This document shows, one piece after another, positions 1-61,033 of a DNA stretch of 64,000 nt; position 1 is the first letter of the stretch; the number at the start of each line of letters is the position of its first letter. The notes under the pieces are model-generated. The model was given only the letters and a program-made list of their open reading frames with translations, was not told the origin of the DNA and searched no databases. Source of the stretch: Eledone cirrhosa (Eukaryota); the NCBI GenBank assembly GCA_964016885.1, contig OZ024757.1, forward strand, positions 35,092,001-35,156,000, read 5' to 3'. Made by a program: the position numbers and the translations under genes.

Positions 1-3000
1 ATGAAACGACAGAGAGAGAGACAGATGAAACGAGGGAGATAGAGATGAAACGAGAGAGGAAGAGAGAGATGGAACGAGAGAGAGGAAGAGAGAGATGAAA
101 CGAGAGAGAGGAAGACAGAGATGAATAGAGAGAGAGAGAGCGAGATGAAACGAGAGAGAGGAAGAGAGAGCGCGAGATGAAACGAGAGAGAGAGAGCGCG
201 AGATGAAACTCTGTCATGTAATGTTATGGACATATCTGCCCTTGGGGCTAATAATTGTCATGTAATGTTATGGACGTCTCTGCACCTGTGGCTAATAATT
301 CTGTCATGTAACGTTATGGACAACTCTGCCCCTGTGGCTAATAATTATGTCATGTAATGTTATGGACATCTCCGCCCCTGTGGCTAATAATTCTGACATG
401 TAATGTTATGGACATCTCTGCCCCTCTGGCTAATAATTCTGACATGTAATGTTATGGACATCTCTGCCCCTGTGGCTAATAAATCAGAATTATTAGCCAC
501 AGGGGCAGAGATGTCCATAACATTACATGTCAGAATTATTAGCCACAGGGGCAGAGATGTCCATAACATTACATGACAGATTTATTAGCCACAGGGGCAG
601 AGATGTTCATAACACTACATGTCAGAATTATTAGCCACAGGGGCAGAGATGTCCATAACATTACATTACATAATTATTAGCCACAGGGGCAGAGATGTCC
701 ATAACATTACATGACAGAATTATTAGCCACAGGGGCAGAGATGTCCATAACATTACATGACAATTATTAGCCCCAAGGGCAGATATGTCCATAACATTAC
801 TTGACAGACTTTCATCTCGCGCTCTCTCTCTCGTTTCATCTCGCACTCTCTCTCTTCCTCTCTCTCGTTTCATCTCGCTCTCTCTCTCTGGTTTCATCTC
901 GCGTTAACTCTCTTCCTCTCTCTCGTTTCATCTCTCTCTCTCGTTTCATCTCTATCTCCCTCGTTTCATCTGTCTCTCTCTCTGTCGTTTCATCTCCCTC
1001 TAACTCTCTCTCGCTCTCTCGTTTCATCTCTCTCTCCCTCTCGTTTCATCTCGCTCTCTCTCTCCTGTTTCATCTCGCTCTCTCTCTCCTGTTTCATCTC
1101 GCTCTCTCTCTCCTGTTTCATCTCGCTCTCTACTCTCGTTTCCTCTCTCTCATATCCTCTCTCTCGTTTCCTCTCTCTCTCGTTTCCTCTCTCTCTCGTT
1201 TCCTCTAGCTCTCACTCTCTCGTTTCATCTCGCTCTCTCTCTCTCATTTCATCTCGCTCTCTCTCTCTCGTTTCATCTCGCTCTCTCTGTCTCGTTTCAT
1301 TTCGCTCTCTCTCTCTCTCATTTCATCTCGCTATCTCTATCTCGTTTCATCCCGCTCTCTCTGTCTCGTTTCATCTCGCTCTCTCTCTCTCATTTCATCT
1401 CGCTCTCTCTCTCTCATTTCATCTCGCTCTCTCTCTCTCTCGTTTCATCTCGCTCTCACTCTCTCATTTCATCTCGCTCTCTCTCTCTCGTTTGATCTCG
1501 CTCTCACTCTATCTTCCTCTCTCTCTCTTGTTTCAACACTCTAATCCCTCACTTGTTTCATCTCTCTCAGATTTATTAGCCACAGGGGCAGAGATGTCCA
1601 TAACATTACTTGACGAATTTATTAGCCACAGGGGCAGAGATGTCCATAACATTACATGACAGAATTATTAGCCACAGGGGCAGAGATGTCCATAACATTA
1701 CATGACATAATTATTAGCCACAGGGGCAGAGATGTCCATAACATTACATGACAGAATTATTAGCCACAGGGGCAGAGATGTACATAACATTACATGACAA
1801 TTATTAGCCCCAAGGGCAGATATGTCCATAACATTACATGACAATCATTAGTCCCAAGGGCAGATATGTCCATAACATTACATGACAGACTTTAATCTCG
1901 CGCTCTCTCTCTCTCGTTTCATCTCGCCCTCTCTCTCTTCCTCTCTCTCGTTTCATCTCGCTCTCTCTCTCTCTCGTTTCATCTCGCGCTCTCTCTCTTC
2001 CTCTCTCTCTTCCTCTCTCTCGTTTCATATCGCTCTCTCTCTCTCTCGTTTCATCTTTGTCTTCCTCTCTCTCGTTCCATCTCTCTCTTCCTCTCTCTCT
2101 CTTTCCATCTCTCTCTCGTTTCATCTAGCTCTCACTCTCTCGTTTCATCTCGCTCTCTCTGTCTCGTTCCATCTCGCTCTCACTCTCTCGTTTCATCTCG
2201 CTCTCTCGTTTCATCTCTATCTCCCTCGTTTCATCTGTCTCTCTCTCTGTCGTTTCATCTCCCTCTATCTCTCTCTCGCTCTCTCGTTTCATCTCACCCT
2301 CCCTCTCGTTTCATCTAGCTCACACTCTCTCGTTTCATCTTGCTCTCTCTGTTTCGTTCCATCTCGCTCTCACTCTCTCGTTTCATCTCGCTCTCTCTGT
2401 CTCTCATTTCATCTCGATCTCTCTGTCTCGTTTCATCCCGCTCTCTCTGTCTCGTTTCATCTCGCTCTCTCTCTCTCATTTCATCTCGCTCTCTCTCTCA
2501 TTTCATCTCGCTCTCTCTCTCTCTCTCGTTTCATCTCACTCTCACTCTCTCATTTCATCTCGCTCTCTCTCTCTCGTTTCATCACGCGCTCTCTCTCTTC
2601 CTCTCTCTCGTTCCATCTCTCTCTTCCTCTCTCTCGTTCCATCTCTCTCTTCCTCTCTCTTGTTTCATCTCTCTCTCTCGTTTCATCTCTATCTCCCTCG
2701 TTTCATCTGTCTCTCTCTCTGTCGTTTCATCTCCCTCTATCTCTCTCTCGCTCTCTCGTTTCATCTCTCTCTCCCTCTCATTTCATCTCGCTCTCTCTCT
2801 CCTGTTTCATCTCGCACTCTCTCTCTCCTGTTTCATCTCGCTCTCTACTCTCGTTTCCTCACTCTCGTTTCCTCTCTCTCTCTCGTTTCCTCTCTCTCTC
2901 GTTTCATGTAGCTCTCACTCTCTCGTTTCATCTCGCTCTCTCTCTCGCATTTCATCTCGCTCTCTCTCTCTCGTTTCATCTCGCTCTCTCTGTCTCGTTT

Positions 3001-12466: not shown

Positions 12467-12550
12467 TATGTATATATATTTATATCTAGAGATAAGAAGA
12501 AAACTGAAAGAAAGAAAAAAAGAAAAAAAAAAATGAGACCTTATATGTAA

Positions 12551-12621
12551 CCCATGACCAGGATTGAAACCAAAACCAGGACTACCACCATCTCTGGTAT
12601 CACCCACCAGACCACCATGAA
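12551..12621 (-). pseudogene. tRNA-like relic (tRNA pseudogene or SINE head); copies near 30388-30458, 43058-43128 and 62904-62974
   Basis: 71 nt on the minus strand: TTCATGG-TGGTCTGGTGG (A-box-like) ... GGTTTCAATCCTGG (B-box-like)-TCATGGG. The 7-nt ends pair with G-U wobbles. The anticodon arm is not recognisable. Confidence 0.4.
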
Positions 12622-18624: not shown

Positions 18625-21600
18625 TTACATCTGTCTGTGAACTCTTGAAAAAGCAACATACAATTGTCCAGGGTTAAATACTTGCTCAGGGAGGAACAGA
18701 CCCACTTTATCATGTATTTGACCATGGTTCTTGTTGATTGTCATGGCATATGACAGTCTTAATGGAAACTGGGGTCTTTCCAAAGTAAAAGGGATGTTGG
18801 CACCACTGGGGGATAACTTCAGTCTTGGGGTCAAAACACACCTGCCCATCAAAGGACCATAGATATGAGAAGCTTTGATAAAATGTTTATGCAGTTCTAC
18901 TACTTCTAATCTTGTGCCATTACATAATCTGTTCTGGATTGAAATATTCCATAGAAGCGTTATTATTGATCCTGCTTTTAATTGGAGTTTGTGAGGCGGC
19001 ATCCCAGAAGGTGTAAGCAAGTTCATTTAGCTTGAACCAGGCAGCAAGGGTCCCTGCATTTCTACCACAACCTGAGCATTGCCTCTTTGAAAGTAAACTC
19101 TGTTTGTTCTCCAGGTGTGTGGCTAGGCTGTATACTGTATGTGATGTACCATGAAGCTTAAATTCCGAGAGACACGACACTGCTTCTGGCTGAGACACAT
19201 ACCTGCAACAAAGATAGGTTCTTATTTCATCATGGTTGTGTTGGTTCTGAGCCTCATTAGGTAATGCATTATTCGTTACTTCTATAGATGTACAATCATG
19301 CCCCATGTAACATATTTAAAGAGGTACTTGACACTTTTTACAGAAGCGCAAACTTCAACATTAATATGTGCACAATATTTCTTAAGCAAAAAGGCATTAA
19401 ATGGCACAACATTCCTGTTATCTACTGAATGTCATCCAATTTACACTGCAGTTCCTGTCTTGCACCTCCTGTACTCTGGGTATCCATTTAGGTTCAATAA
19501 TGTTTCCCTTCTGTAGGTTTTTGGATAGTTCTTTTGGAAAAATCCATTTTGTATAAATGGGGGAAAAGGGTTTCCAGAACCACATGGCCTGTGGATCATA
19601 AACTTTTAAACCTGCTCATGTAGTACTGGATCATCTTCCAATGCAGGTATTTCTGCTGACACGATTCTGTTAATGTCTTCTCTGTTTCTTATTTTGTCTT
19701 CATTTTTTAAGGCTCAGTGTTATCATCTGTTTAGATAATTCATTAAACCATTATACTCATCCACTCACAATTGGGCTTGATTGTTCCTCAAATATTGAAG
19801 CCTGCATCCCTCTACTTTCATATAGGCATCCACTAAATACTGCTAAAATAATTTACCTGCCCTATATATCGCACTAAATCCTCCTCTATATGCTATACAG
19901 TATATGTAATACTCCTGCATTGTCAGTCTATTGCAAACACAGGTCCTGCATTCCTCTCCATGGCACTATGCCACCAAAATTCACCATTATGGGTCGGTCA
20001 TGAGGTCCAAGTGGCATGAATTATGTGGTATTTTCTGAGGAGGATGGACTTTAGGAAAGATGATAATATCTCTTTGTACAGGTGGTGTACCCTCAATCCC
20101 CCACAAAACAACAGCTATCATTACTAGTTGGTACATTAGAGCAGCTCATATCTGATCCTCTTCTAAATCTTAATTCACAGTTCTGTACACGACAATTTTC
20201 TCTTCTTGCACTTTGCTGTTTGAGATGAAACAAGATAGCAATGTCCATAACATTACATGTCAGAATTATTAGCCACAGGGGCAGAGATGTCCATAACATT
20301 ACATGTCAGAATTATTAGCCACAGGGGCAGAGATGTCCATAACATTACATGACAGAATTATTAGCCACAGGGGCAGAGATGTCCATAACATTACATGTCA
20401 GAATTATTAGCCACAGGGGCAGAGATGTCCATAACATTACATGACAGAATTATTAGCCACAGGGGCAGAGATGACCATAACATTACATGACATAATTATT
20501 AGCCACAGGGGCAGAGATGACCATAACATTACATGACAGATTTATTAGCCACAGGTGCAGAGATGACCATAACATTACATGACAGAATTATTAACCACAG
20601 GGGCAGAGATGACCATAACATTACATGACAATTATTAGCCCCAGGGGCAGATATGTCCATAACATTACATGACAGAGTTTCATCTCGCGCGCTCTCTCTC
20701 TCGTTTCATCTCGCGCGCTCTCTCTCTCGTTTCATCTCTGTCTTCCTCTCTCTCATTTCATCTCTGTCTTCCTCTCTCTTGTTCCATCTCTCTCTTCCTC
20801 TCTCTCGTTCCATCTCTCTCTTCCTCTCTCTCGTTTCATCACTCTCTCTCGTTTCATCTCTATTTCTCTCTCTCGTTTCATCTCTATCTCTCTCGTTTCA
20901 TCTGTCTCTCTCTCTGTCGTTTCATCTCCCTCTATCTCTCTCTCGCTCTCTCATTTCATCTCTCTCTCCCTCTCGTTTCATCTCGCTCTCTCTCTCCTGT
21001 TTCATCTCGCTCTCTCTCCTGTTTCATCTCGCTCTCTCTCTCCTGTTTCATCTCACTCTCTAGTCTCGTTTCCTCTCTCTCTCATTTCATCTCGCTCTCA
21101 CTCTCTCTCATTTCATCTCGCTCTCACTCTCTCTCATTTCATCTCGCTCTCTCTCTCTCATTTCATCTCGCTCGCACTCTCTCATTTCATCTCGCTCTCT
21201 CTCTCTCTCTCGTTTCATCTCGCTCTCTCTCTCGCTCTCTCTCTCTCATTTCATCTCACTCTGTCTCTCTCTCTCGTTTCATCTCGCTCTCACTCTCTCG
21301 TTTCATCTCGCTCTCACTCTCTCATTTCATCTCGCTCTCTCTCTCTCGTTCCATCTTGCTCTCTCTCTCTCTTGTTTCAACACTCTAATCCCTCACTTGT
21401 TTCATCTCTCTCTAATCCCTCACTTGTTTCATCTCTCTCTTGTTTCAATTCTTTCTCTCTCTCTCTTTCTCTCCCCTCTCTCTCTTGTTTCATCCCTCAC
21501 CCTCTTGTTTCATCCCCCCTCTCCCTCTTCCTCTCTCTCTCTTCCTCTCTCTCTCTTCCTCTCTCTCTCTTCCTTTCTCTCTCTTCCTCTCTCTCTCTTC

Positions 21601-23598
21601 CTCTCTCTCTCTTCCTCTCTCTCTCTTCCTCTCTCTCTCTCTTCCTCTCTCTCTCTCTTCCTCTCTCTCTCTTTCACACTCTATCTCCGACTCGTTTCAT
21701 CACTCTCTCTCCTCTCTCCCCTCACCCTCTTGTTTCAACTCTCTCCTCGTTTCAACTCTCTCTCCTCTCGTTTCAACTCTCTCTCTCTCTCTCTCTCCTC
21801 TCGTTACAACTCTCTCTCTCTCTCCTCTCGTTTCAACTCTCTCTCTCTTTTCTCGTTTCAACTATCTCCTCTCTTGTTTCAACTCTCTCACCTCTCGTTT
21901 CAACTCTTTCTCTCTGTGTCTCCAATGTGTAATAAACCGTGACTCATATATATATACCGAAGAATGTACATAAACACATACATACACGCATGTGTATATA
22001 TATATACATACATGTGTCTCTCTCTCTCCCTATATATATGTATATATGTGTAAATATGTACATACATATTAGTGTATATATATTGCTATCTATATGCATA
22101 TTTGTATAATTATACTGTATGGTGAATTGGCAGTATCGGTAGAGGGTCTGACGCCATGCTTTCCAGCATAGTTACGTCCCTTTACGATCCGAGGTCAACT
22201 TTGCCTTTCATCCTTACGGGGTCGATAAAATAAAGTACCAGTAATGTACTGGTTAATTACTGACCTTGTGCCTAAAATAGAAACAATTATTAGTTCAAAG
22301 AGAAACCACCATCATAGAGAAACCACCATCCTACCTGAAATATTATGTTATCATATTAAATATTTCTTATACTGTCATGTTTTTTCTTTAAAACGATTGC
22401 ATCTCAATAAAGTGAAGAAAACTATTATATACTGTTGTTATATCATTATACTTTAGTTTTAACATTTCTATGTGTATAAATATAATGTATGTAAGTGTGT
22501 TTGAAAATATATAATAATAATATGCATGTTTGAAGCAGGGTTCAACTGAAATATCTATACCAGTAACTTAATTAGTGTTACACCTTAGGCATAAACTATT
22601 TGGCATTCTTTGAAGGAGGTACTAGGTTTTTCGCTGTCTTAAATGGAGTATACACGCGCACACGATGCATATATATAAATTGTTTTTCTCTGTACAAAGA
22701 GATTGACATCATTTCTTAAATCATTATTTAGGGTTTTACAACAAAACATATTGTATGTGTAATTATACAAATTGAATTTAAGTATTTATTTTAAAATTTT
22801 ACATACACTTTAGTAGTATATATATATATATTCATTTGTGATGCCATGCATTGTATTGTACACTTCGACATATGGATTATATTCATGCAACACCTCTCTT
22901 ATCATAGCCATTTTTTGTGGTGAGCAGTCATTATTTGTTGGGATTAGGGCAGTGGATTGGCAGTATCGGTAGAGCGTCAGACACCATGCTTTGCAGCATA
23001 GGGTTATGGCCCTTTACGTTCTGGGTTCAAATCCCTCTAAGGTTGATTTTGTTTTCATCCTTATGAGGTCGATAGAATAAAGTACCAGTAATTGCTGGCC
23101 TTGTGCCAGAAACAATTATTTGGTTGTACTTCCAATCTGTGCTACACACCTTCGTTCCCATCAATAATATATAACTGGCCATATTGTGGTGTATTTTCTG
23201 CAGGTTACAGAGATGGGGGTGTATTGATATGTTTGACCCTGAATATGAAATCTATACGGGCCTCTGCCGGGTGGTAACACCAAATGAAGTGAAATAAATG
23301 TAGTTTTAATTGCAGATGTTTCTGTGAAATCAACTGCTTCCTGGCCTCTTTCAAAGAGATTTCTCAGTCTCTCAGGGTATATTTGCAATGGTGGCAACAC
23401 TACCTTTCCTTTATTACAACAGTTACAATTTTCATTTCTAAATTTCAAAGCTCCACAGTGATCACACGAAACATTCATATCACTAATATGAAATTCTTCT
23501 ACATTTCCATTAATATTAATTGTTGGCCAATTTCTCTTACGACGCTCATTATCCATTCTTCTCTGTCTGAATGTTTTCCATTCTAAGTCTATTTGCAT
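18625..23598 (-). pseudogene. Helitron RepHel pseudogene, copy B: internally deleted, interrupted by a 2.6-kb satellite insertion (20224-22841) and a SINE
   Basis: In minus-strand order: N-terminal CxxC..CC motif (23161..23598); DINRIVSAEIP, MIHRPCG, GYPEYRR, DNRNVVPFN, AHINVEVC, SVKYLFKY (~19300-19700); DEIRTYL..RYVSQPEA (18920..19306); Pif1-family helicase C-terminus PSGMPPHKLQLK..LCNGTRL..QFPLRLSYAMTINK.HGQ..GQLYVAFSRV (18625..19026). Many stops and frameshifts. Confidence 0.93.
20224..22841. mobile_element. 2.6-kb insertion in the Helitron ORF: one 46-bp block (~20241-20675), one CT-rich block (~20676-21920), a SINE and AT-rich DNA
   Basis: Filled site ...TTGCTGTTTGA|GATGAAACAAG...TTCATTTGTGA|TGCCATGC versus the empty site TTGCTGTTTGATGCCATGC at 37941-37959. 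Confidence 0.85.
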
Positions 23599-23702
23599 GG
23601 AATAATTATATTCTGTTGTTTATTATGTAATTAAATAGCTCTGTACAATACATAGAGCATTCTTCTTTTCTTTACCTTTTCTATGGAAATACAAGAACAA
23701 AC

Positions 23703-23736
<34 letters not shown>

Positions 23737-25210
23737 ACATACATAAACAAGACTGTTATTGCTCCAACCAGTCTATTTACCTTTGATAACTATCCTAAAT
23801 ATAAATACACCTATAACATACATACATATATCATATATGTTTTTGATGCCGTGGTATAGCAGAGATAAGCAAGAAGAGAAAAGAAAATGAAAATGAGAAA
23901 AAAAAAGAAGTAAGAAGTCGGGGGAGGGACAGACACTTCACCCCAGTCTAAGTGGTCCCTCAGCCGCAACCTGTGGAAGAAACGTAAAAGCGTTACCTCA
24001 GAGCAAGGCCAGAGACACCTGCTACAATAGTCGCCCCTCCTCATGAGGCTCCTGTCGTCTTTCCTCCCGACTTTATGGAGGAAATCAGCAGTACAGGGAC
24101 CAAGTATGGCAGAGGTCTCAATGGAGTGGAAGAGGTGAGTTAGGCCTTGGTACTATCTTACTATCCTCTGCATTGCGGGGTGTGGAGCCTAGGTTTGTAG
24201 CTGTAGCTATATTTGAACTTTTATATGAAATTTCAGTTTTATATTTTTCACATCTTAAAACTGAATCTTAGTCTTTTGCAGCTCATCTTGTTTCATCTCG
24301 CAGCACACGATTTGGGAACCACTGCTCTAGAGATAGAAAAAGTATATTTTATGCAGGGCTTCCCTGAGACATAAAAACTATTTCAAGAGATCGACATGGG
24401 TAGAAAGGTTGAGAAATGCTGCACAATGTTCTTTGGTTTTTGTTCACCTTTAAATAATCATGTATAAAATATCGGGTGTGCAAGATTTCATGAAAAGGTA
24501 TAACATTATTTATGCTGATCTTGCAGGGACTAGCTCCAATTGAGAGTTGTACCAATTCCCACTAAACTCGAAACTCCTGGACAATATATACATATCTTTA
24601 TAAGTTCCTGTGTATTGTGTCGCTGTATAATGAAACATAAATATATACCATGCATGTCAGTCAGATTTGAACTCACTATATTTGGTGTTTTATAAATATA
24701 ATTTGTTTGTTAAAACAATTGATTAAATAATAACTAAATAAAATTAATTCTACAATCCTGGATAGGGAATGAACTTATAACTGCATAATAGAAGCCATCT
24801 ATTCGAGCAGTATTGCCATCTAAGCCACCAGGTTACTTACAGAACTTCATTCAAATATAAAATATAAAATATATGCCAGACATAGTGAGTTGGAATCTGA
24901 CTGATTAGTTGGTCATTGTCCCAGCCAACAGTTTAAATCGCCAACCAGTAGGTGACATCGACTAGGTTGGGAAAACTTGGTTAAGTAGCTCCAGTTATTG
25001 CTACGTTAGACATATTCAAGACTTATCGACACTGAATGGAAGAAAAGTAAAGTTGAACTCAGAGTAAAGAACTGGAAAAATACTGCAAAGAATTCTATCT
25101 GATGTTCTAACAATTCTACCAAGTTACCTTATGTATATATATTTATATCTAGAGATAAGAAGAAAACTGAAAGAAAGAAAAGAAAAAAAATGAGACCTTA
25201 TATGTAACCC

Positions 25211-26100
25211 ATGTTACAACTCAATATATATATATTTGGGTTGTAACATATTCCCGCCGGTGAAATAAAAATTTTAATAGAAAAACGGCGGGAATATATG
25301 TTACAACCCAATCTATATATATTTGAGTTGTAACATATATTCCCGCCGTTGAAATAAAAATTTTAATAGAAAAACGGCGGGAATATATGTTACAATCCAA
25401 TCTACATATATTTGGGTTGTAACATATATTCCCGCCGTTGAAATAAAAATTTTAATAGAAAAACGTCGGGAATATATGTTACAACGCAATCTATATATAT
25501 TTGGGTTGTAACATATATTCCCGCCGTTGAAATAAAATTTTAATAGAAAAACGGCGGGAATATATGTTACAACCCAACCTATATATGTTTGGGTTGTAAT
25601 ATATATTCCCGCCGTTTTTCTGTTAAAATTTTTATTTCAACGGCGGGAATATATGTTACAACCCAAATATATGTAGATTGGGTTGTAACATATATTCCCG
25701 CCGTTTTTCTATTAAAATTTTTATTTCGACGGCGGGAATATATGTTACAACCCAAATATATATAGATAGGGTTGTAACATATATTCCCGCCGTTTTTCTA
25801 TTAAAATTTTTATTTCAACGGCGGGAATATATGTTACAACCCAAATATATGTAGATTGGGTTGCAACATATATTCCCGCCGTTTTTCTATTAAAATGTTT
25901 ATTTCAACGGTGAGAATATATGTTACAACCCAAATATATATAGATTGGGCTGTAACATATATTCCCGCCGTTTTTCTATTAAAATTTTTATTTCAACGGT
26001 GGGAATATATGTTACAACCCAAATATATATAGATTGGGTTGTAACATATATTCCCGCCGTTTTTCTATTAAAATTTTTATTTCAACGGCGGGAATATATA
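25211..26100. repeat. Array of 89-bp doubly palindromic units (mini-MITE-like), 4 in orientation A then 6 in orientation B
   Basis: Unit = TTGGGTTGTAACATATATTCCCGCCGTT (28) + TTTCTATTAAAATTTTTATTTC (22) + AACGGCGGGAATATATGTTACAACCCAA (28) + ATATATATAGA (11). Confidence 0.95.
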
Positions 26101-26476
26101 CCCTGAGAGACTGAGAAATCTCTTTCAAAGAGATTTCTCAGTCTCTCAGGGTATATTTGCAATGGTGGCAACACTACCTTTCCTTTATTACAACAGTTAC
26201 AATTTTCATTTCTAAATTTCAAAGCTCCACAGTGATCACACGAAACATTCATATCACTAATATGAAATTCTTCTACATTTCCATTAATATTAATTGTTGG
26301 CCAATTTCTCTTACGACGCTCATTATCCATTCTTCTCTGTCTGAATGTTTTCCATTCTAAGTCTATTTGCATGGAATAATTATATTCTGTTGTTTATTAT
26401 GTAATTAAATAGCTCTGTACAATACATAGAGCATTCTTCTTTTCTTTACCTTTTCTATGGAAATACAAGAACAAAC

Positions 26477-26508
<32 letters not shown>

Positions 26509-27981
26509 ACATACATAAACAAGACTGTTATTGCTCCAACCAGTCTATTTACCTTTGATAACTATCCTAAATATAAATACACCTATACCATACATACATA
26601 TATCATATATGTTTTTGATGCCGTGGTATAGCAGAGATAAGCAAGAAGAGAAAAGAAAATGAAAATGAGAAAAAAAAAGAAGTAAGAAGTCGGCGGAGGG
26701 ACAGACACTTCACCCCAGTCTAAGTGGTCCCTCAGCCGCAACCTGTGGAAGAAACGTAAAAGCGTTACCTCAGAGCAAGGCCAGAGACACCTGCTACAAT
26801 AGTCGCCCCTCCTCATGAGGCTCCTGTCGTCTTTCCTCCCGACTTTATGGAGGAAATCAGCAGTACAGGGACCAAGTATGGCAGAGGTCTCAATGGAGTG
26901 GAAGAGGTGAGTCAGGCCTTGGTACTATCTTACTCTCCTCTGCATTGCGGGGTGTGGAGCCTAGGTTTGTGGCTGTAGCTATATTTGAACTTTTATATGA
27001 AATTTCAGTTTTATATTTTTCACATCATAAACTTAATCTTAGTCTTTTGCAGCTCATCTTGTTTCATCTCGCAGCACACGATTCGGGAACCACTGCTCTA
27101 GAGATAGAAAAAGTATATTTTATGCAGGGCTTCCCTGAGACATAAAAACTATTTCAAGAGATCGACATGGGTAGAAAGGTTGAGAAATGCTGCACAATGT
27201 TCTTTGGTTTTTGTTCACCTTTAAATAATCATGTATAAAATATCGGGTGTGCAAGATTTCATGAAAAGGTATAACATTATTTATGCTGATCTTGCAGGGA
27301 CTAGCTCCAATTGAGAGTTGTACCAATTCCCACTAAACTCGAAACTCCTGGACAATATATACATATCTTTATAAGTTCCTGTGTATTGTGTCGCTGCATA
27401 ATGAAACATAAATATATACCATGCATGTCAGTCAGATTTCAACTCACTATATTTGGCGTTTTATAGATATAATTTGTTTGTTAAAACAATTGATTAAATA
27501 ATAACTAAATAAAATTAATTCTACAATCCTGGATAGGGAATGAACTTATAACTGCATAATAGAAGCCATCTATTCGAGCAGTATTGCCATCTAAGCCACC
27601 AGATTACTTACAGAACTTCATTCAAATATAAAATATAAAATATATGCCAGACATAGTGAGTTGGAATCTGACTGATTAGTTGGTCATTGTCCCAGCCAAC
27701 AGTTTAAATCGCCAACCAGTAGGTGACATCGACTAGGTTGGGAAAACTTGGTTAAGTAGCTCCAGTTATTGCTACGTTAGACATATTCAAGACTTATCGA
27801 CACTGAATGGAAGAAAAGTAAAGTTGAACTCAGAGTAAAGAACTGGAAAAATACTGCAAAGAATTCTATCTGATGTTCTAACAATTCTACCAAGTTACCT
27901 TATGTATATATATTTATATCTAGAGATAAGAAGAAAACTGAAAGAAAGAAAAGAAAAAAAATGAGACCTTATATGTAACCC

Positions 27982-28782
27982 ATGTTACAACTCAATATAT
28001 ATATATTTGGGTTGTAACATATTCCCGCCGGTGAAATAAAAATTTTAATAGAAAAACGGCGGGAATATATGTTACAACCCAATCTATATATATTTGAGTT
28101 GTAACATATATTCCCGCCGTTGAAATAAAAATTTTAATAGAAAAACGGCGGGAATATATGTTACAATCCAATCTACATATATTTGGGTTGTAACATATAT
28201 TCCCGCCGTTGAAATAAAAATTTTAATAGAAAAACGTCGGGAATATATGTTACAACGCAATCTATATATATTTGGGTTGTAACATATATTCCCGCTGTTG
28301 AAATAAAATTTTAATAGAAAAACGGCGGGAATATATGTTACAACCCAACCTATATATGTTTGGGTTGTAATATATATTCCCGCCGTTTTTCTGTTAAAAT
28401 TTTTATTTCAACGGCGGGAATATATGTTACAACCCAAATATATGTAGATAGGGTTGTAACATATATTCCCGCCGTTTTTCTATTAAAATTTTTATTTCAA
28501 CGGCGGGAATATATGTTACAACCCAAATATATGTAGATTGGGTTGCAACATATATTCCCGCCGTTTTTCTATTAAAATGTTTATTTCAACGGTGAGAATA
28601 TATGTTACAACCCAAATATATATAGATTGGGCTGTAACATATATTCCCGCCGTTTTTCTATTAAAATTTTTATTTCAACGGCGGGAATATATGTTACAAC
28701 CCAAATATATATAGATTGGGTTGTAACATATATTCCCGCCGTTTTTCTATTAAAATTTTTATTTCAACGGCGGGAATATATA
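27982..28782. repeat. 89-bp palindromic-unit array (4 A + 5 B)
   Basis: Same unit and same junction sequences as 25211-26100. Confidence 0.95.
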
Positions 28783-30954
28783 CCCTGAGAGACTGAGAAA
28801 TCTCTTTCAAAGAGATTTCTCAGTCTCTCAGGGTATATTTGCAATGGTGGCAACACTACCTTTCCTTTATTACAACAGTTACAATTTTCATTTCTAAATT
28901 TCAAAGCTCCACAGTGATCACACGAAACATTCATATCACTAATATGAAATTCTTCTACATTTCCATTAATATTAATTGTTGGCCAATTTCTCTTACGACG
29001 CTCATTATCCATTCTTCTCTGTCTGAATGTTTTCCATTCTAAGTCTATTTGCATGGAATAATTAGATTCTGTTGTTTATTATGTAATTAAATAGCTCTGT
29101 ACAATACATAGAGCATTCTTCTTTTCTTTACCATTTCTATGGAAATACAAGAACAAACATATATATATATATATATGTGTGTATATACATAAACAAAACT
29201 GTTATTGCTCCAACCAGTCTATTTACCTTTGATAACTATCCTAAATATAAATACACCTATACCATACATACACATATCATATATGTTTTTGATGCCGTGG
29301 TATAGCAGAGATAAGCAAGAAGAGAAAAGAAAATGAAAATGAGAAAAAAAAAGAAGTAAGAAGTCGGGGGGAGGGACAGACACTTCACCCCAGTCTAAGT
29401 GGTCCCTCAGCCGCAACCTGTGGAAGAAACGTAAAAGCGTTACCTCGGAGCAAGGCCAGAGACACCTGCTACAATAGTCGCCCCTCCTCATGAGGCTCCT
29501 GTCGTCTTTCCTCCCGACTTTATGGAGGAAATCAACAGTACAGGGACCAAGTATGGCAGAGGTCTCAATGGAGTGGAAGAGGCGAGTCAGGCCTTGGTAC
29601 TATCTTACTATCTTTGGTTTTTGTTCACCTTTAAATAATCATGTATAAAATATCGGGTGTGCAAGATTTCATGAAAAGGTATAACATTATTTATGCTGAT
29701 CTTGCAGGGACTAGCTCCAATTGAGAGTTGTACCAATTCCCACTAAACTCGAAACTCCTGGACAATATATACATATCTTTATAAGTTCCTGTGTATTGTG
29801 TCGTTGTATAATGAAACATAAATATATACCATGCATGTCAGTCAGATTTGAACTCACTATATTTGGCGTTTTATAGATATAATTTGTTTGTTAAAACAAT
29901 TGATTAAATAATAACTAAATAAAATTAATTCTACAATCCTGGATAGGGAATGAACTTATAACTTCATAATAGAAGCCATCTATTCGAGCAGTATTGCCAT
30001 CTAAGCCACCAGGTTACTTACAGAACTTCATTCAAATATAAAATATAAAATATATGCCAGACATAGTGAGTTGGAATCTGACTGATTAGTTGGTCATTGT
30101 CCCAGCCAACAGTTTAAATCGCCAACCAGTAGGTGACATCGACTAGGTTGGGAAAACTTGGTTAAGTAGCTCCAGTTATTGCTACGTTAGACATATTCAA
30201 GACTTATCGACACCGAATGGAAGAAAGGTAAAGTTGAACTCAGAGTAAAGAACTGGAAAAATACTGCAAAGAATTCTATCTGATGTTCTAACAATTCTAC
30301 CAAATTACCTTATGTATATATATTTATATCTAGAGATAAGAAGAAAACTGAAAGAAAGAAAAAAAAAAAATGAGACCTTATATGTAACCCATGACCAGGA
30401 TTGAAACCGAAACCAGGACTACTACCATCTCTGGTATCACCCACCAGACCACCATGAAAGATACAAAAATCTGCATTTTTAATATTTATAAGCCTACTTT
30501 CAATATTAAAGTAATTAACATATGGTGTTGTTCATGCCTTTCTCTATGTTATTGGTAAAAAATAAAGTATTTAAACCTCAAATTTTGTTATTCAAATATG
30601 CTTGCTTATGTAATTATAAATGTCGCAGAGTACACACACATATATAGATGTGAAAATATTCAGGACCCCAACGGCTGTGCTACTGCCGTTTCGACATCTA
30701 TATATATATCTTTTAGTCCTAGGCTCTTTCAGCGCAGAAAGAATTCTCCAATGATCACAACCAGCTAATGGTGCCCAGTGGAAGCACTTTAGTCTAATTA
30801 TAACCCCAACGATCACGATTAGCGGCGGCTTTTTCGAGTCTGAGGTTGACTGCCAGATATCTATATATATCTATATATATATATATATTTTTATACTTTG
30901 CTAGAATCCCGGAGAACAACAGAAAGATGCTGAGTTCAGAGTTTAAAAAACATG

Positions 30955-40275: not shown

Positions 40276-41167
40276 ATGTTACAACTCAATATATATATAT
40301 ATTTGGGTTGTAACATATTCCCGCCGGTGAAATAAAAATTTTAATAGAAAAACGGCGGGAATATATGTTACAACCCAATCTATATATATTTGGGTTGTAA
40401 CATATATTCCCGCCGTTGAAATAAAAATTTTAATAGAAAAACGGTGGGAATATATGTTACAACCCAATCTATATATGTTTGGGTTGTAACATATATTCCC
40501 GCCGATTTTCTATTAAAATTTTTATTTCAACGGCGGGAATATATGTTACAACCCAAATATATGTAGATTGGGTTGTAACATATATTCCCGCCGTTTTTCT
40601 ATTAAAATTTTTATTTCGACGGCGGGAATATATGTTACAACCCAAATATATATAGATAGGGTTGTAACATATATTCCCGCCGTTTTTCTATTAAAATTTT
40701 TATTTCAACGGCGGGAATATATGTTACAACCCAAATATATATAGTTTGGTTGTAACATATATTCCCGCCGTTTTTCTATTAAAATTTTTATTTCAACGGC
40801 AGGAATATATGTTACAACCCAAATATATATAGATTGGGTTGTAACATATATTCCCGCCGTTTTTCTATTAAAATTTTTATTTCAACGGCGGGAATATATG
40901 TTACAACCCAAATATATGTAGTTTGGGTTGTAACATATATTCCCGCCGTTTTTCTATTAAAATTTTTATTTCAACGGCGGGAATGTATGTTACAACTCAA
41001 ATATATATAGGTAGGGTTGTAACATATATTCCCGCCGTTTTTCTATTAACATTTTTATTTCAACGGCGGGAATATATGTTACAACCCAAATATATATAGA
41101 TTGGGTTGTAACATATATTGCCGCCGTTTTTCTATTAAAATTTTTATTTCAACGGCGGGAATATATA
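40276..41167. repeat. 89-bp palindromic-unit array (2 A + 8 B) at the junction of two 2.7-kb sub-units (~38453-43063)
   Basis: Same unit and junctions as 25211-26100. Confidence 0.95.
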
Positions 41168-55020: not shown

Positions 55021-55644
55021 ATGTTACAACTCAATATATATATATTTGGGTTGTAACATATTTCCGCCGGTGAAATAAAAATTTTAATAGAAAAACGGCG
55101 GGAATATATGTTACAACCCAATCTATATATATTTGAGTTGTAACATATATTCCCGCCGTTGAAATAAAAATTTTAATAGAAAAACGGCGGGAATATATGT
55201 TACGACCCAACCTATATATGTTTGGGTTGTAACATATATTCCCGCCGTTTTTCTATTAAAATTTTTATTTCAACGGCGGGAATATATGTTACAACCCAAA
55301 TATATATAGATTCGGCTGTAACATATGTTCCCGCCGTTTTTCTATTAAAATGTTTATTTCAACGGCGGGAATATATGTTACAGCCCAAATATATATAGAT
55401 TGGGCTGTAACATATATTCCCGCCGTTTTTCTATTAAAATTTTTATTTCAACGGCGGGAATATATGTTACAACCCAAATATATATAGATTGGGCTGTAAC
55501 ATATATTCCCGCCGTTTTTCTATTAAAATTTTTATTTCAACGGCGGGAATATATGTTACAACCCAAATATATATAGATTGGGTTGTAACATATATTCCCG
55601 CCGTTTTTCTATTAAAATTTTTGTTTCAACGGCGGGAATATATA
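55021..55644. repeat. 89-bp palindromic-unit array (2 A + 5 B)
   Basis: Same unit and junctions. Confidence 0.95.
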
Positions 55645-57520: not shown

Positions 57521-58339
57521 GTGTTACAACTCAATATATATATATTTGGGTTGTAACATATTCCCGCCGGTGAAATAAAAATTTTAATAGAAAAACGGCG
57601 GGAATATATGTTACAACCCAATCTATATATATTTGAGTTGTAACATATATTCCCGCCGTTGAAATAAAAATTTTAATAGAAAAACGGCGGGAATATATGT
57701 TACAATCCAATCTACATATATTTGGGTTGTAACATATATTCCCGCCGTTGAAATAAAAATTTTAATAGAAAAACGTCGGGAATATATGTTACAACGCAAC
57801 CTATATATGTTTGGGTTGTAACATATATTCCCGCCGTTGAAATAAAATTTTAATAGAAAAACGGCGGGAATATATGTTACAACCCAACCTATATATGTTT
57901 GGGTTGTAATATATATTCCCGCCGTTTTTCTGTTAAAATTTTTATTTCAACGGCGGGAATATATGTTACAACCCAAATATATGTTACAACCCAAATATAT
58001 GTAGATTGGGTTGTAACATATATTCCCGCCGTTTTTCTATTAAAATTTTTATTTCGACGGCGGGAATATATGTTACAACCCAAATATATATAGATAGGGT
58101 TGTAACATATATTCCCGCCGTTTTTCTATTAAAATTTTTATTTCAACGGCGGGAATATATGTTACAACCCAAATATATGTAGATTGGGTTGCAACATATA
58201 TTCCCGCCGTTTTTCTATTAAAATGTTTATTTCAACGGCGGGAATATATGTTACAACCCAAATATATATAGATTGGGCTGTAACATATATTCCCGCCATT
58301 TTTCTATTAAAATTTTTATTTCAACGGCGGGAATATATA
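57521..58339. repeat. 89-bp palindromic-unit array (4 A + 5 B, with an 18-bp internal duplication)
   Basis: Same unit. ATGTTACAACCCAAATAT is doubled near 57963-57998. Confidence 0.95.
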
Positions 58340-60214: not shown

Positions 60215-61033
60215 GTGTTACAACTCAATATATATATATTTGGGTTGTAACATATTCCCGCCGGTGAAATAAAAATTTTAATAGAAAAACGGCGGGAATA
60301 TATGTTACAACCCAATCTATATATATTTGAGTTGTAACATATATTCCCGCCGTTGAAATAAAAATTTTAATAGAAAAACGGCGGGAATATATGTTACAAT
60401 CCAATCTACATATATTTGGGTTGTAACATATATTCCCGCCGTTGAAATAAAAATTTTAATAGAAAAACGTCGGGAATATATGTTACAACGCAACCTATAT
60501 ATGTTTGGGTTGTAACATATATTCCCGCCGTTGAAATAAAATTTTAATAGAAAAACGGCGGGAATATATGTTACAACCCAACCTATATATGTTTGGGTTG
60601 TAATATATATTCCCGCCGTTTTTCTGTTAAAATTTTTATTTCAACGGCGGGAATATATGTTACAACCCAAATATATGTTACAACCCAAATATATGTAGAT
60701 TGGGTTGTAACATATATTCCCGCCGTTTTTCTATTAAAATTTTTATTTCGACGGCGGGAATATATGTTACAACCCAAATATATATAGATAGGGTTGTAAC
60801 ATATATTCCCGCCGTTTTTCTATTAAAATTTTTATTTCAACGGCGGGAATATATGTTACAACCCAAATATATGTAGATTGGGTTGCAACATATATTCCCG
60901 CCGTTTTTCTATTAAAATGTTTATTTCAACGGCGGGAATATATGTTACAACCCAAATATATATAGATTGGGCTGTAACATATATTCCCGCCATTTTTCTA
61001 TTAAAATTTTTATTTCAACGGCGGGAATATATA
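60215..61033. repeat. 89-bp palindromic-unit array (4 A + 5 B), apparently identical to 57521-58339
   Basis: Shares the private variants of the previous array. Confidence 0.95.

What the first reader, a model, noticed from the sequence alone, without database searches (positions are those of the whole stretch)
25211..26100. Concatemers of an 89-bp dumbbell / mini-mariner-like unit with a single orientation flip, found only at duplication junctions
Seen: six arrays (25211, 27982, 40276, 55021, 57521, 60215) of arm(28)-loop(22)-inverted arm(28)-loop(11). Every arm can pair with both neighbours. Each array runs in orientation A and then flips once to B (4+6, 4+5, 2+8, 2+5, 4+5, 4+5), so the whole array is also one large foldback. 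The arrays occur only between tandem 2.7-kb sub-units and never at the unduplicated sites (12556, 30393, 43063, 62910). Knowledge, from memory: the arm TTGGGTTGTAACATATATTCCCGCCGTT resembles mariner TIRs, and a ~78-bp TIR-spacer-TIR unit in TA-rich DNA parallels the 80-bp Hsmar1-derived MADE1 MITE. Inference: this is what rolling-circle or rolling-hairpin copying of an 89-nt dumbbell template with one strand switch would leave. It may be a MITE turned into a satellite and amplified inside a Helitron-derived array. This is the best candidate for an undescribed system in the window.
Basis: partly seen in the sequence, partly recalled or inferred. Interest (0 to 1): 0.75.

Follow-up and report, generated by a model that had tools for sequence, protein, structure and literature searches.

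The report
Mini-transposon palindrome captured in repair scar
The repeat is a head-to-tail string of a tiny dead jumping gene that folds back on itself once; it was likely pasted in a single DNA-repair accident and then copied along with its surroundings to dozens of places, so it is a well-preserved fossil of how satellite DNA starts rather than a new self-copying system.

Summary
Observation confirmed: six arrays, 28-22-28-11 unit, one flip each. The unit is a MADE1-like miniature of a resident mariner: 44 dispersed solos (39 with TA on both sides) and broken 1.3-1.6 kb parents with the same 28-bp ends were found. But the six arrays are not six events. All 87 arrays parsed on three chromosomes share the same two breakpoints, both with microhomology, and a 24-nt snap-back copy of host DNA, at the joint of one 1.87-kb tandem duplication in a broken Helitron-derived macro-repeat. 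'Only at junctions' follows from that. An unflipped sister array lies 89 kb from array-free macro-repeat copies; its left flank, read backwards, spells the 11-bp spacer. Best reading: a one-off template-switching repair copied a local MITE array with one hairpin U-turn; unequal exchange then multiplied it. One later centre inversion was inherited by 22 arrays. A captured inverted-dimer circle or a rolling 89-nt circle is not excluded but not needed. No earlier scan note on this repeat was found. New variant of known transposon-derived tandem arrays (Bari1, Angel fold-back model).

The parts
25211..25235 (+). Lead: last 14 nt of a right arm (unit positions 65-78) plus an 11-nt TA spacer; first 3 nt (ATG) are microhomology with the host
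   Evidence: same lead in 87 of 87 arrays (80 identical, 7 with 1-2 nt changed)
25236..25577 (+). Four MITE units in orientation A with 11-bp spacers
25578..25588 (+). Centre spacer at the single A-to-B flip; found reverse-complemented in 24 of 87 arrays
25589..26099 (-). Six MITE units in orientation B; the last stops at unit position 66, with 4 nt (ATAT) of microhomology to the next piece
26096..26156 (.). Snap-back scar: 24 nt inverted copy of the host sequence that follows, extending a natural 6-bp inverted repeat into a perfect 30-bp palindrome with a 1-nt loop
   Evidence: absent at the original edges 10756, 23346, 53156
23346..25213 (+). 1.87-kb host segment that is tandemly duplicated (next copies 26120-27984 and 28802-30393)
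23164..23619 (-). Fragment of a Helitron Rep-helicase N-terminal region (CxxC motifs); the duplication breakpoint cuts it, leaving the truncated copy at 26082-26393
   Evidence: atlas lead to Helitron_like_N and STPR clusters; no Pfam hit
18628..19026 (-). Pif1 helicase 2B fragment of the same broken Helitron-like element
   Evidence: PF21530 E 3.5e-12
27982..28781 (.). Array copy 2 (4A+5B)
40276..41166 (.). Array copy 3 (2A+8B)
55021..55643 (.). Array copy 4 (2A+5B)
57521..58338 (.). Array copy 5 (4A+5B, with an 18-bp internal duplication)
60215..61032 (.). Array copy 6 (4A+5B, with the same 18-bp duplication)
12549..12570 (+). Empty (pre-insertion) site in an unduplicated unit; same empty sequence at 30393, 43063, 62910

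Best explanation
The array is a string of a 78-bp mariner-derived MITE with one orientation flip, sitting at the joint of a 1.87-kb tandem duplication, and it likely arose once, by template-switching break repair that copied a nearby MITE array with a hairpin U-turn, and was then likely multiplied passively with its Helitron-derived macro-repeat. Steps: (1, shown) a resident mariner gave about 80-bp deletion derivatives that spread into TA sites. (2, inferred) at one locus on C25 a copy folded on itself during synthesis, which made both arms identical and copied the left flank to the right side, giving the 11-bp spacer; slippage or unequal exchange then made a head-to-tail array. (3, breakpoints shown, process inferred) a broken end in a neighbouring macro-repeat primed on that array through 3 nt of microhomology and copied several units; a second run of units was laid down in the opposite orientation, either by the new strand folding back on itself or by the other broken end (which had first snapped back and copied 24 nt of itself) copying the same strand, the two runs being joinable because every arm is complementary to every inverted arm. 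(4, shown as pattern) unequal exchange varied the number of 2.7-kb sub-units and of units on each side, and the macro-repeat spread to C18, C20 and C25. (5, shown once) a crossover between the A and B runs inverted the centre. The flip persists because neither unit loss nor A-B crossover removes it. No function for the host is implied.
For: One event: same left and right breakpoints in 87 of 87 arrays; ascertained both ways (40 arrays first found by the left junction all had the right one; the rest found by the right junction, all had the left one). Window layout is always original edge-[segment-array-snapback]n-segment-empty site, n = 0, 2, 1, 3. Repair signatures: 3-nt and 4-nt microhomology and a 24-nt snap-back, as described for polymerase-theta joins (PMC5068794, PMC7368036; passages). 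Mirror markers: variant 27g in first A of 83 and last B of 35 of 87 arrays; variant 4a in second A of 74 and third-last B of 36, on all three chromosomes. Local source: unflipped sister array shares the derived arm change and spacer type and lies 89 kb from array-free macro-units (chance about 0.002, post hoc). Its left flank read backwards matches spacer plus the 4a variant, score 14, reached by 0 of 88 solo flanks (best 12). An independent solo (L045) shows the same kind of arm-mediated U-turn with 60 nt of mirrored flank. Flanks differ from an array-free copy by 1.6%, parents from each other by 6-11%, so the mariner was probably already dead. Centre inversion: marker unit 67a is first B in 40 arrays and last A with reversed centre in 22, the latter one clade on the flank tree, support 0.98.
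Against: The present sister array is not the direct template: its loop differs at three sites that none or almost none of the 755 units carry and its spacers are heterogeneous, so a lost or earlier uniform array, or repeated copying of one monomer, must be assumed. The two ends of the insert are in the same phase (start 65, end 66), which a cut circle explains better than two free choices (chance 0.09 uniform, about 2 in 7 given the microhomology used; one search counts). About 0.8 kb is far longer than the flank inserts described for polymerase theta in the passages read (PMC5068794). Mirror markers are in inconsistent registers and could come from later arm-to-arm conversion. The flank tree had only one outgroup and left out 12 of 87 arrays with short flanks.
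Confidence: 0.68

Rival explanations
1. Captured inverted-dimer circle. Template switches at two units of a donor array released a hairpin-capped 'dog-bone', which replicated into a circle with an A run, a B run and two flips; it was cut once inside an arm and ligated into the break.
For: Insert ends close seamlessly into such a circle: start at unit position 65 (microhomology 65-67), end at 66 (63-66) (87 of 87). One tip would be a top-strand spacer and the other a bottom-strand loop, as the ODIRA dog-bone predicts (PMC10766183, passages; geometry is my inference). 4a sits third from the end in 36 arrays, the register predicted for B = A+1.
Against: That register also predicts 27g in the second-last B (0 of 87) and 75t in the last B (0 of 87). 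Phase match has chance 0.09-0.29. A 0.8-kb circle has no evident origin; the yeast test of circle integration found none (PMC10766183, passage).
Confidence: 0.15
2. Rolling copy of one 89-nt circle (DNA dumbbell or circular RNA) from both broken ends, as the first reader proposed and as earlier scan notes propose for retrozyme arrays in this genome (Penelope-type copying).
For: All 755 units share founder changes absent from solos (1218 arms with the derived base, 0 with the solo base) and differ from the modal unit by 2.1% per site, as one template would give. Both ends read the same strand of the unit. Bari1 arrays with partial end units and a 500-nt flanking duplication were explained by rolling circles (PMC5932611, passage).
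Against: It happened at most twice in a 3-Gb genome: 0 dimers of the common solo type, no other arrays on C1-C17. The insertion is not in a TA microsatellite, unlike the retrozyme cases noted. No ribozyme or other Rfam family in 22500-30500. Uniformity is also expected from homogenisation in a short array.
Confidence: 0.11
3. An unflipped array was inserted first and the flip arose afterwards by a separate fold-back or inversion-plus-deletion, before the macro-repeat amplified.
For: Unflipped arrays of this lineage exist; centres are re-formed by deletion in a few arrays.
Against: No unflipped array at this junction among 87; a plain inversion gives two flips; the snap-back at the B end ties the B run to the junction event.
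Confidence: 0.05
4. Assembly or read-chimera artefact.
For: Fold-back chimeras are a known long-read error (recalled); no long reads could be laid here.
Against: Flanks are not mirrored; 87 copies carry heritable variants that follow the flank tree. Short reads of other individuals cover the right junction (X10 depth 17+1) and, by depth arithmetic, both loops around the flip (about 30 or more reads in X10).
Confidence: 0.01

Closest known systems
MADE1 (human Hsmar1-derived 80-nt MITE; PMC3495686, PMC3814204, passages) and Gnome/Elf/Goblin of Aedes
   Same: About 80 bp, two mariner ends around a short remnant, TA duplication, born by internal deletion at microhomology, several derivatives from one parent.
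   Different: Different mariner family; one lineage here forms whole-element head-to-tail arrays. Searches found no paper on MADE1 arrays (2 papers, neither on this).
Bari1, hobo and P tandem arrays of Drosophila (PMC5932611, passages; Marsano 2003 seen only as cited there)
   Same: Concatemer of a whole Tc1/mariner-type element, partial units at the edges, and for the small Bari1 array a large flanking duplication (about 500 nt; here 1868 nt).
   Different: Here the unit is a MITE, arms are intact, the spacer is not a plain target duplication, and the array is palindromic with one flip.
Angel fold-back amplification model (Izsvak 1999, read only through PMC12628747 section 6) and Xstir / miDNA4 satellites
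   Same: Nascent strand folds at the MITE's inverted repeats and recopies itself; MITEs seed satellites.
   Different: Xstir and miDNA4 monomers are internal parts of the MITE; here the whole MITE plus a mirrored flank is the monomer, and the fold-back acts on an array.
Polymerase-theta / MMBIR templated insertion at tandem-duplication junctions (PMC7368036, PMC5068794, passages); ODIRA (PMC10766183, passages)
   Same: Kilobase tandem duplication, microhomology at both joints, reverse-complement flank insert, strand switch at close inverted repeats.
   Different: Insert is about 0.8 kb of ectopic repeat, far longer than the flank inserts described in those passages; the enzymes are not identifiable from sequence.
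Tandem arrays of decayed Helitrons carrying internal repeats in varied directions (PMC12628747, passages on Xiong 2016 and Crassostrea gigas)
   Same: Macro-repeat with Rep-helicase fragments and internal satellites.
   Different: Breakpoints lie inside the coding remnant, not at element ends; Helitron termini were not determined here.

Membership tests
mariner-derived MITE (MADE1-like) | Dispersed solo copies with terminal inverted repeats and TA on both sides | tested here: met
   44 distinct solos from 63 loci inspected; TA both sides 39 of 44, one side 5; 74-88 bp, 30 of 44 are 79-80 bp; 79+34+11 exact end matches against 0 in controls
mariner-derived MITE (MADE1-like) | A transposase-coding mariner with the same ends | tested here: met
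   L121/L170 (1483 bp), L171 (1272 bp), L172 (1572 bp) carry both ends (3 of 10 loci examined); HTH_48 E 1.9e-12, Transposase_1; Mos1 E 2e-21; WVPHEL and YSPDLAP in the translation
mariner-derived MITE (MADE1-like) | Interior derives from the parent's two ends by deletion | tested here: met
   Solo loop = first 7 nt after the parent's 5' end + last about 18 nt before its 3' end, overlapping at ATAA
mariner-derived MITE (MADE1-like) | Array units themselves end in TA target duplications and are mobile | tested here: not met
   Units are followed by TC and preceded by AT; arrays occur only inside the macro-repeat
Double-insertion transposon tandems | A single target duplication between units, independent copies | tested here: not met
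   11-bp spacer, not TA; units share founder changes; 0 dimers of the common type
Templated insertion at a tandem-duplication junction | Microhomology at joints and flank-templated insert | tested here: met
   3 and 4 nt; 24-nt snap-back
Templated insertion at a tandem-duplication junction | Dependence on polymerase theta or BIR machinery | not testable with these tools
   Needs genetics
ODIRA inverted-dimer circle | Two flips at interrupted inverted repeats and exact mirror register | tested here: inconclusive
   Ends close in phase; markers 4a fit, 27g and 75t do not
Rolling-circle or rolling-hairpin replicon | Free circular or hairpin-ended template and recurrent independent insertions | tested here: not met
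   One flipped insertion and one unflipped array only; free circles themselves not testable
Foldback (FB/Galileo-type) transposon | Long modular inverted arms that move as a unit with their own target duplication at many sites | tested here: not met
   One site of origin, same flanks in 87 of 87; definition recalled
Helitron (host macro-repeat) | Rep-helicase remnants | tested here: met
   Pif1_2B E 3.5e-12; atlas lead to Helitron_like_N, 25% of members; 52 of 53 other frames had no Pfam hit and one a weak unrelated hit
Helitron (host macro-repeat) | 5' TC and 3' hairpin-CTRR termini | not tested
   Termini not located

The most novel reading that the evidence does not exclude
The array is the fossil of an extrachromosomal inverted-dimer circle (or a rolling 89-nt circle) shed by a MITE array through hairpin capping, cut once in an arm and captured at a distant break: a natural germ-line case of circle capture that yeast tests failed to catch, and a route by which 80-bp MITEs seed self-inverting palindromic satellites.
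Probability: 0.25. Interest if true: 0.6.

Novelty: new variant of a known kind. Interest (0 to 1): 0.36.

Why it matters
One genome holds the whole series: parent mariner, 80-bp solos, a solo with a mirrored flank, an unflipped array whose spacer mirrors its own flank, the flipped array in a dated repair scar, and 87 descendants. That gives rare direct support to the old fold-back model for MITE-to-satellite conversion and a natural experiment on how 0.4-1.3 kb near-perfect palindromes survive, convert and invert in an animal germ line. It is not a new mobile system.

Tried and rejected
Top 30 of 150 scored Transposase_1 loci: 0 carry this end (at least 11 of 30 mismatches); the parent was found through end patterns instead. 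A candidate 1.47-kb pair on C2 was two separate solos. Dimers of the common solo type within 30 nt: 0 (exact pattern). Other arrays of the derived type: none on C1-C17 besides one unrelated palindrome on C2; the list stopped inside C18, so C19-C30 and unplaced contigs were not seen by this search; loop-specific pattern hit only the sister array (7 of 7). The idea that plus/minus pairs on C25 mark a giant element with terminal repeats was dropped: they are centre isomers in one flank orientation. Rfam: 0 hits. Sequencing runs: no RNA holder listed. Run X6 laid nothing, X2 lacked the right junction at 11x; neither shows absence. Literature: searches found no description of this unit or of a single-flip whole-MITE array; Dfam and Repbase were not available, and no supplements (including the Octopus vulgaris repeat library of PMC13282606) were read, so the family may already be catalogued. 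Earlier scan notes: nothing by sequence or words.

Full report
Setting. The window is G000:C18:35,092,001-35,156,000 of a 3.0-Gb animal genome. Earlier scan notes call it probably an octopus; I did not test that.

Observation. All 104 arm matches in the window lie in the arrays. The first array folds into one long hairpin, far beyond 20 shuffles.

The unit is a mariner MITE. Patterns demanding TA directly before the arm gave 79, 34 and 11 exact matches across the chromosomes, 0 in the reversed controls. Of 63 loci inspected, 44 distinct solos were recovered, 39 with TA on both sides, mostly 79-80 bp. One end pair 1.48 kb apart on C10 encloses a broken mariner transposase gene. Searching with it gave 23 matches, five near full length at 89-100%; three of ten examined keep both ends, with longest open stretches of 127, 213 and 262 aa. 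The solos fall into three deletion types, all about 80 bp; the array unit comes from the type joined at an ATAA overlap. This parallels MADE1, an 80-nt Hsmar1 deletion derivative (PMC3495686, PMC3814204; passages). Array units differ from solos by a base changed in both arms alike (1218 arms against 0 of the solo type in the arrays) and by a shortened loop.

One event, many copies. The right junction matches exactly 86 times, only on C18, C20 and C25. I fetched these and parsed 87 arrays, 755 units. Every one has exactly one flip, the same lead and the same stop point. The first 40 were found by the left junction and the rest by the right, so both identities are independent of ascertainment in part of the set. 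In the window the order is always original edge, n times [1.87-kb segment, array, snap-back], segment, empty site, with n = 0, 2, 1, 3. So the arrays lie only between sub-units because the array is the duplication joint itself.

The joint is a repair scar. Left: 3 nt shared between host and arm. Right: the last unit stops in its arm with 4 nt shared with a 24-nt reverse-complement copy of the host sequence that follows, grown from a natural 6-bp inverted repeat. Tandem duplications with microhomology and templated inserts, and snap-back inserts in reverse complement, are described for polymerase-theta joining (PMC7368036, PMC5068794; passages). The breakpoint cuts a Helitron-like coding remnant; it is not at an element end as far as determined.

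Where the template came from. A 12-unit unflipped array on C25 at 14.5867 Mb shares the derived arm base and spacer type. It lies 89 kb from about 3.5 array-free copies of the same macro-repeat; close relatives of the macro-repeat occupy essentially four clusters (top 150 of 1523 candidates), so such proximity has a chance near 0.002 (post hoc). Its left flank read backwards spells the 11-bp spacer plus a variant start found in the second unit of 74 of 87 arrays; none of 88 solo flanks matches as well (post hoc). That is what hairpin-primed copying would leave, the Angel model (through PMC12628747 section 6, part 1 of 2). A solo on C2 (L045) shows an independent arm-mediated U-turn with 60 nt of mirrored flank. 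Against a direct donor role: the sister's loop differs at three sites and its spacers vary, so it is a sister of the template, not the template as it stands. Tandem formation is rare: no dimer of the common type, no other array on C1-C17.

How the flip arose. Both ends of the insert read the same strand of the unit. A fold-back of the new strand, or two broken ends copying the same strand and annealing through the arms, gives this; they cannot be told apart here. Markers near the two outer ends mirror each other (27g: first A in 83, last B in 35; 4a: second A in 74, third-last B in 36), which fits copying of the same stretch twice or later arm-to-arm conversion. The ends are also in phase (65 and 66), so the insert could be a circle with two flips cut once, as in the ODIRA dog-bone model (PMC10766183, passages); the chance of this match is 0.09 to about 0.29 and the marker register fits only in part.

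Later history. Unit numbers range 2-5 A and 2-12 B. In 22 arrays the centre block is inverted relative to 40 others carrying the same marker unit; on a flank tree of 75 arrays and one array-free outgroup they form one clade (support 0.98), so this is one inversion inherited, not 22. No array has three flips. Flanks differ from the outgroup by 1.6%.

Artefact check. Short reads and contigs of other samples cover the right junction (X10, X1). In three raw-read runs, depth on both loops beside the centre implies reads across the flip (X10: 39 at the B loop against only 9 more at the centre than at the A loop); this is arithmetic on depth tables, not read-by-read. No long reads were available.

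Comparison and verdict. Whole-element tandem arrays (Bari1 with partial ends and a 500-nt flanking duplication; PMC5932611, passages), MITE-seeded satellites (PMC9659126, passages) and differently oriented arrays inside Helitrons (PMC12628747) are known. Nine literature searches found no single-flip whole-MITE array; an octopus repeat paper read in passages does not mention one and filtered annotations under 100 bp (PMC13282606); its library and Dfam/Repbase were not seen. It works like fold-back templated insertion followed by satellite turnover; it is a member of the MADE1-like MITE class by origin, not of any rolling-circle replicon or Foldback family. New variant of a known kind; interest 0.36.

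Noticed in passing
window 1-810, centre near 483: The 46-bp satellite and the flanking GA/CT microsatellite both reverse orientation here, a second large fold-back in the same macro-repeat family.
   Followed up: no
L045 1495-1745 (G000:C2:193,426,586): Solo MITE with a small inverted-triplication-like rearrangement: half a MITE, 60 nt of mirrored flank, then a full inverted MITE.
   Followed up: partly
L102 1580-2170 (G000:C2:107.226 Mb): A near-perfect fold-back of roughly 270-bp arms starts right after the TA run that follows a solo MITE.
   Followed up: no
L021-L023, L032-L061, L099-L128: Three independent deletion types of the same mariner all converge on 79-80 bp, the length of MADE1, suggesting a size optimum for mariner mobilisation.
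   Followed up: partly
G000:C25:26.46-28.0 Mb (minus) and 28.63-29.09 Mb (plus): The macro-repeat cluster is itself arranged as megabase inverted blocks.
   Followed up: no
L170 and L172, 3' end of the mariner: Two parent copies carry what looks like the same about 200-bp interspersed repeat just before the 3' end; SINE identity is my guess.
   Followed up: no
window 25211-25270: Four changes fixed in nearly all arrays cluster in the first 60 nt after the left joint, more than the flank divergence predicts; error-prone priming or an edge effect.
   Followed up: partly
run X2 (organism B): A run labelled as another organism holds tandem units and the left-junction sequence, so the insertion may predate a split or the label may differ for the same species.
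   Followed up: no
L167 1500-1536 (G000:C2:349,219,532): Unrelated short palindrome with mirrored AT-rich flanks that matches 13 nt of the arm.
   Followed up: partly
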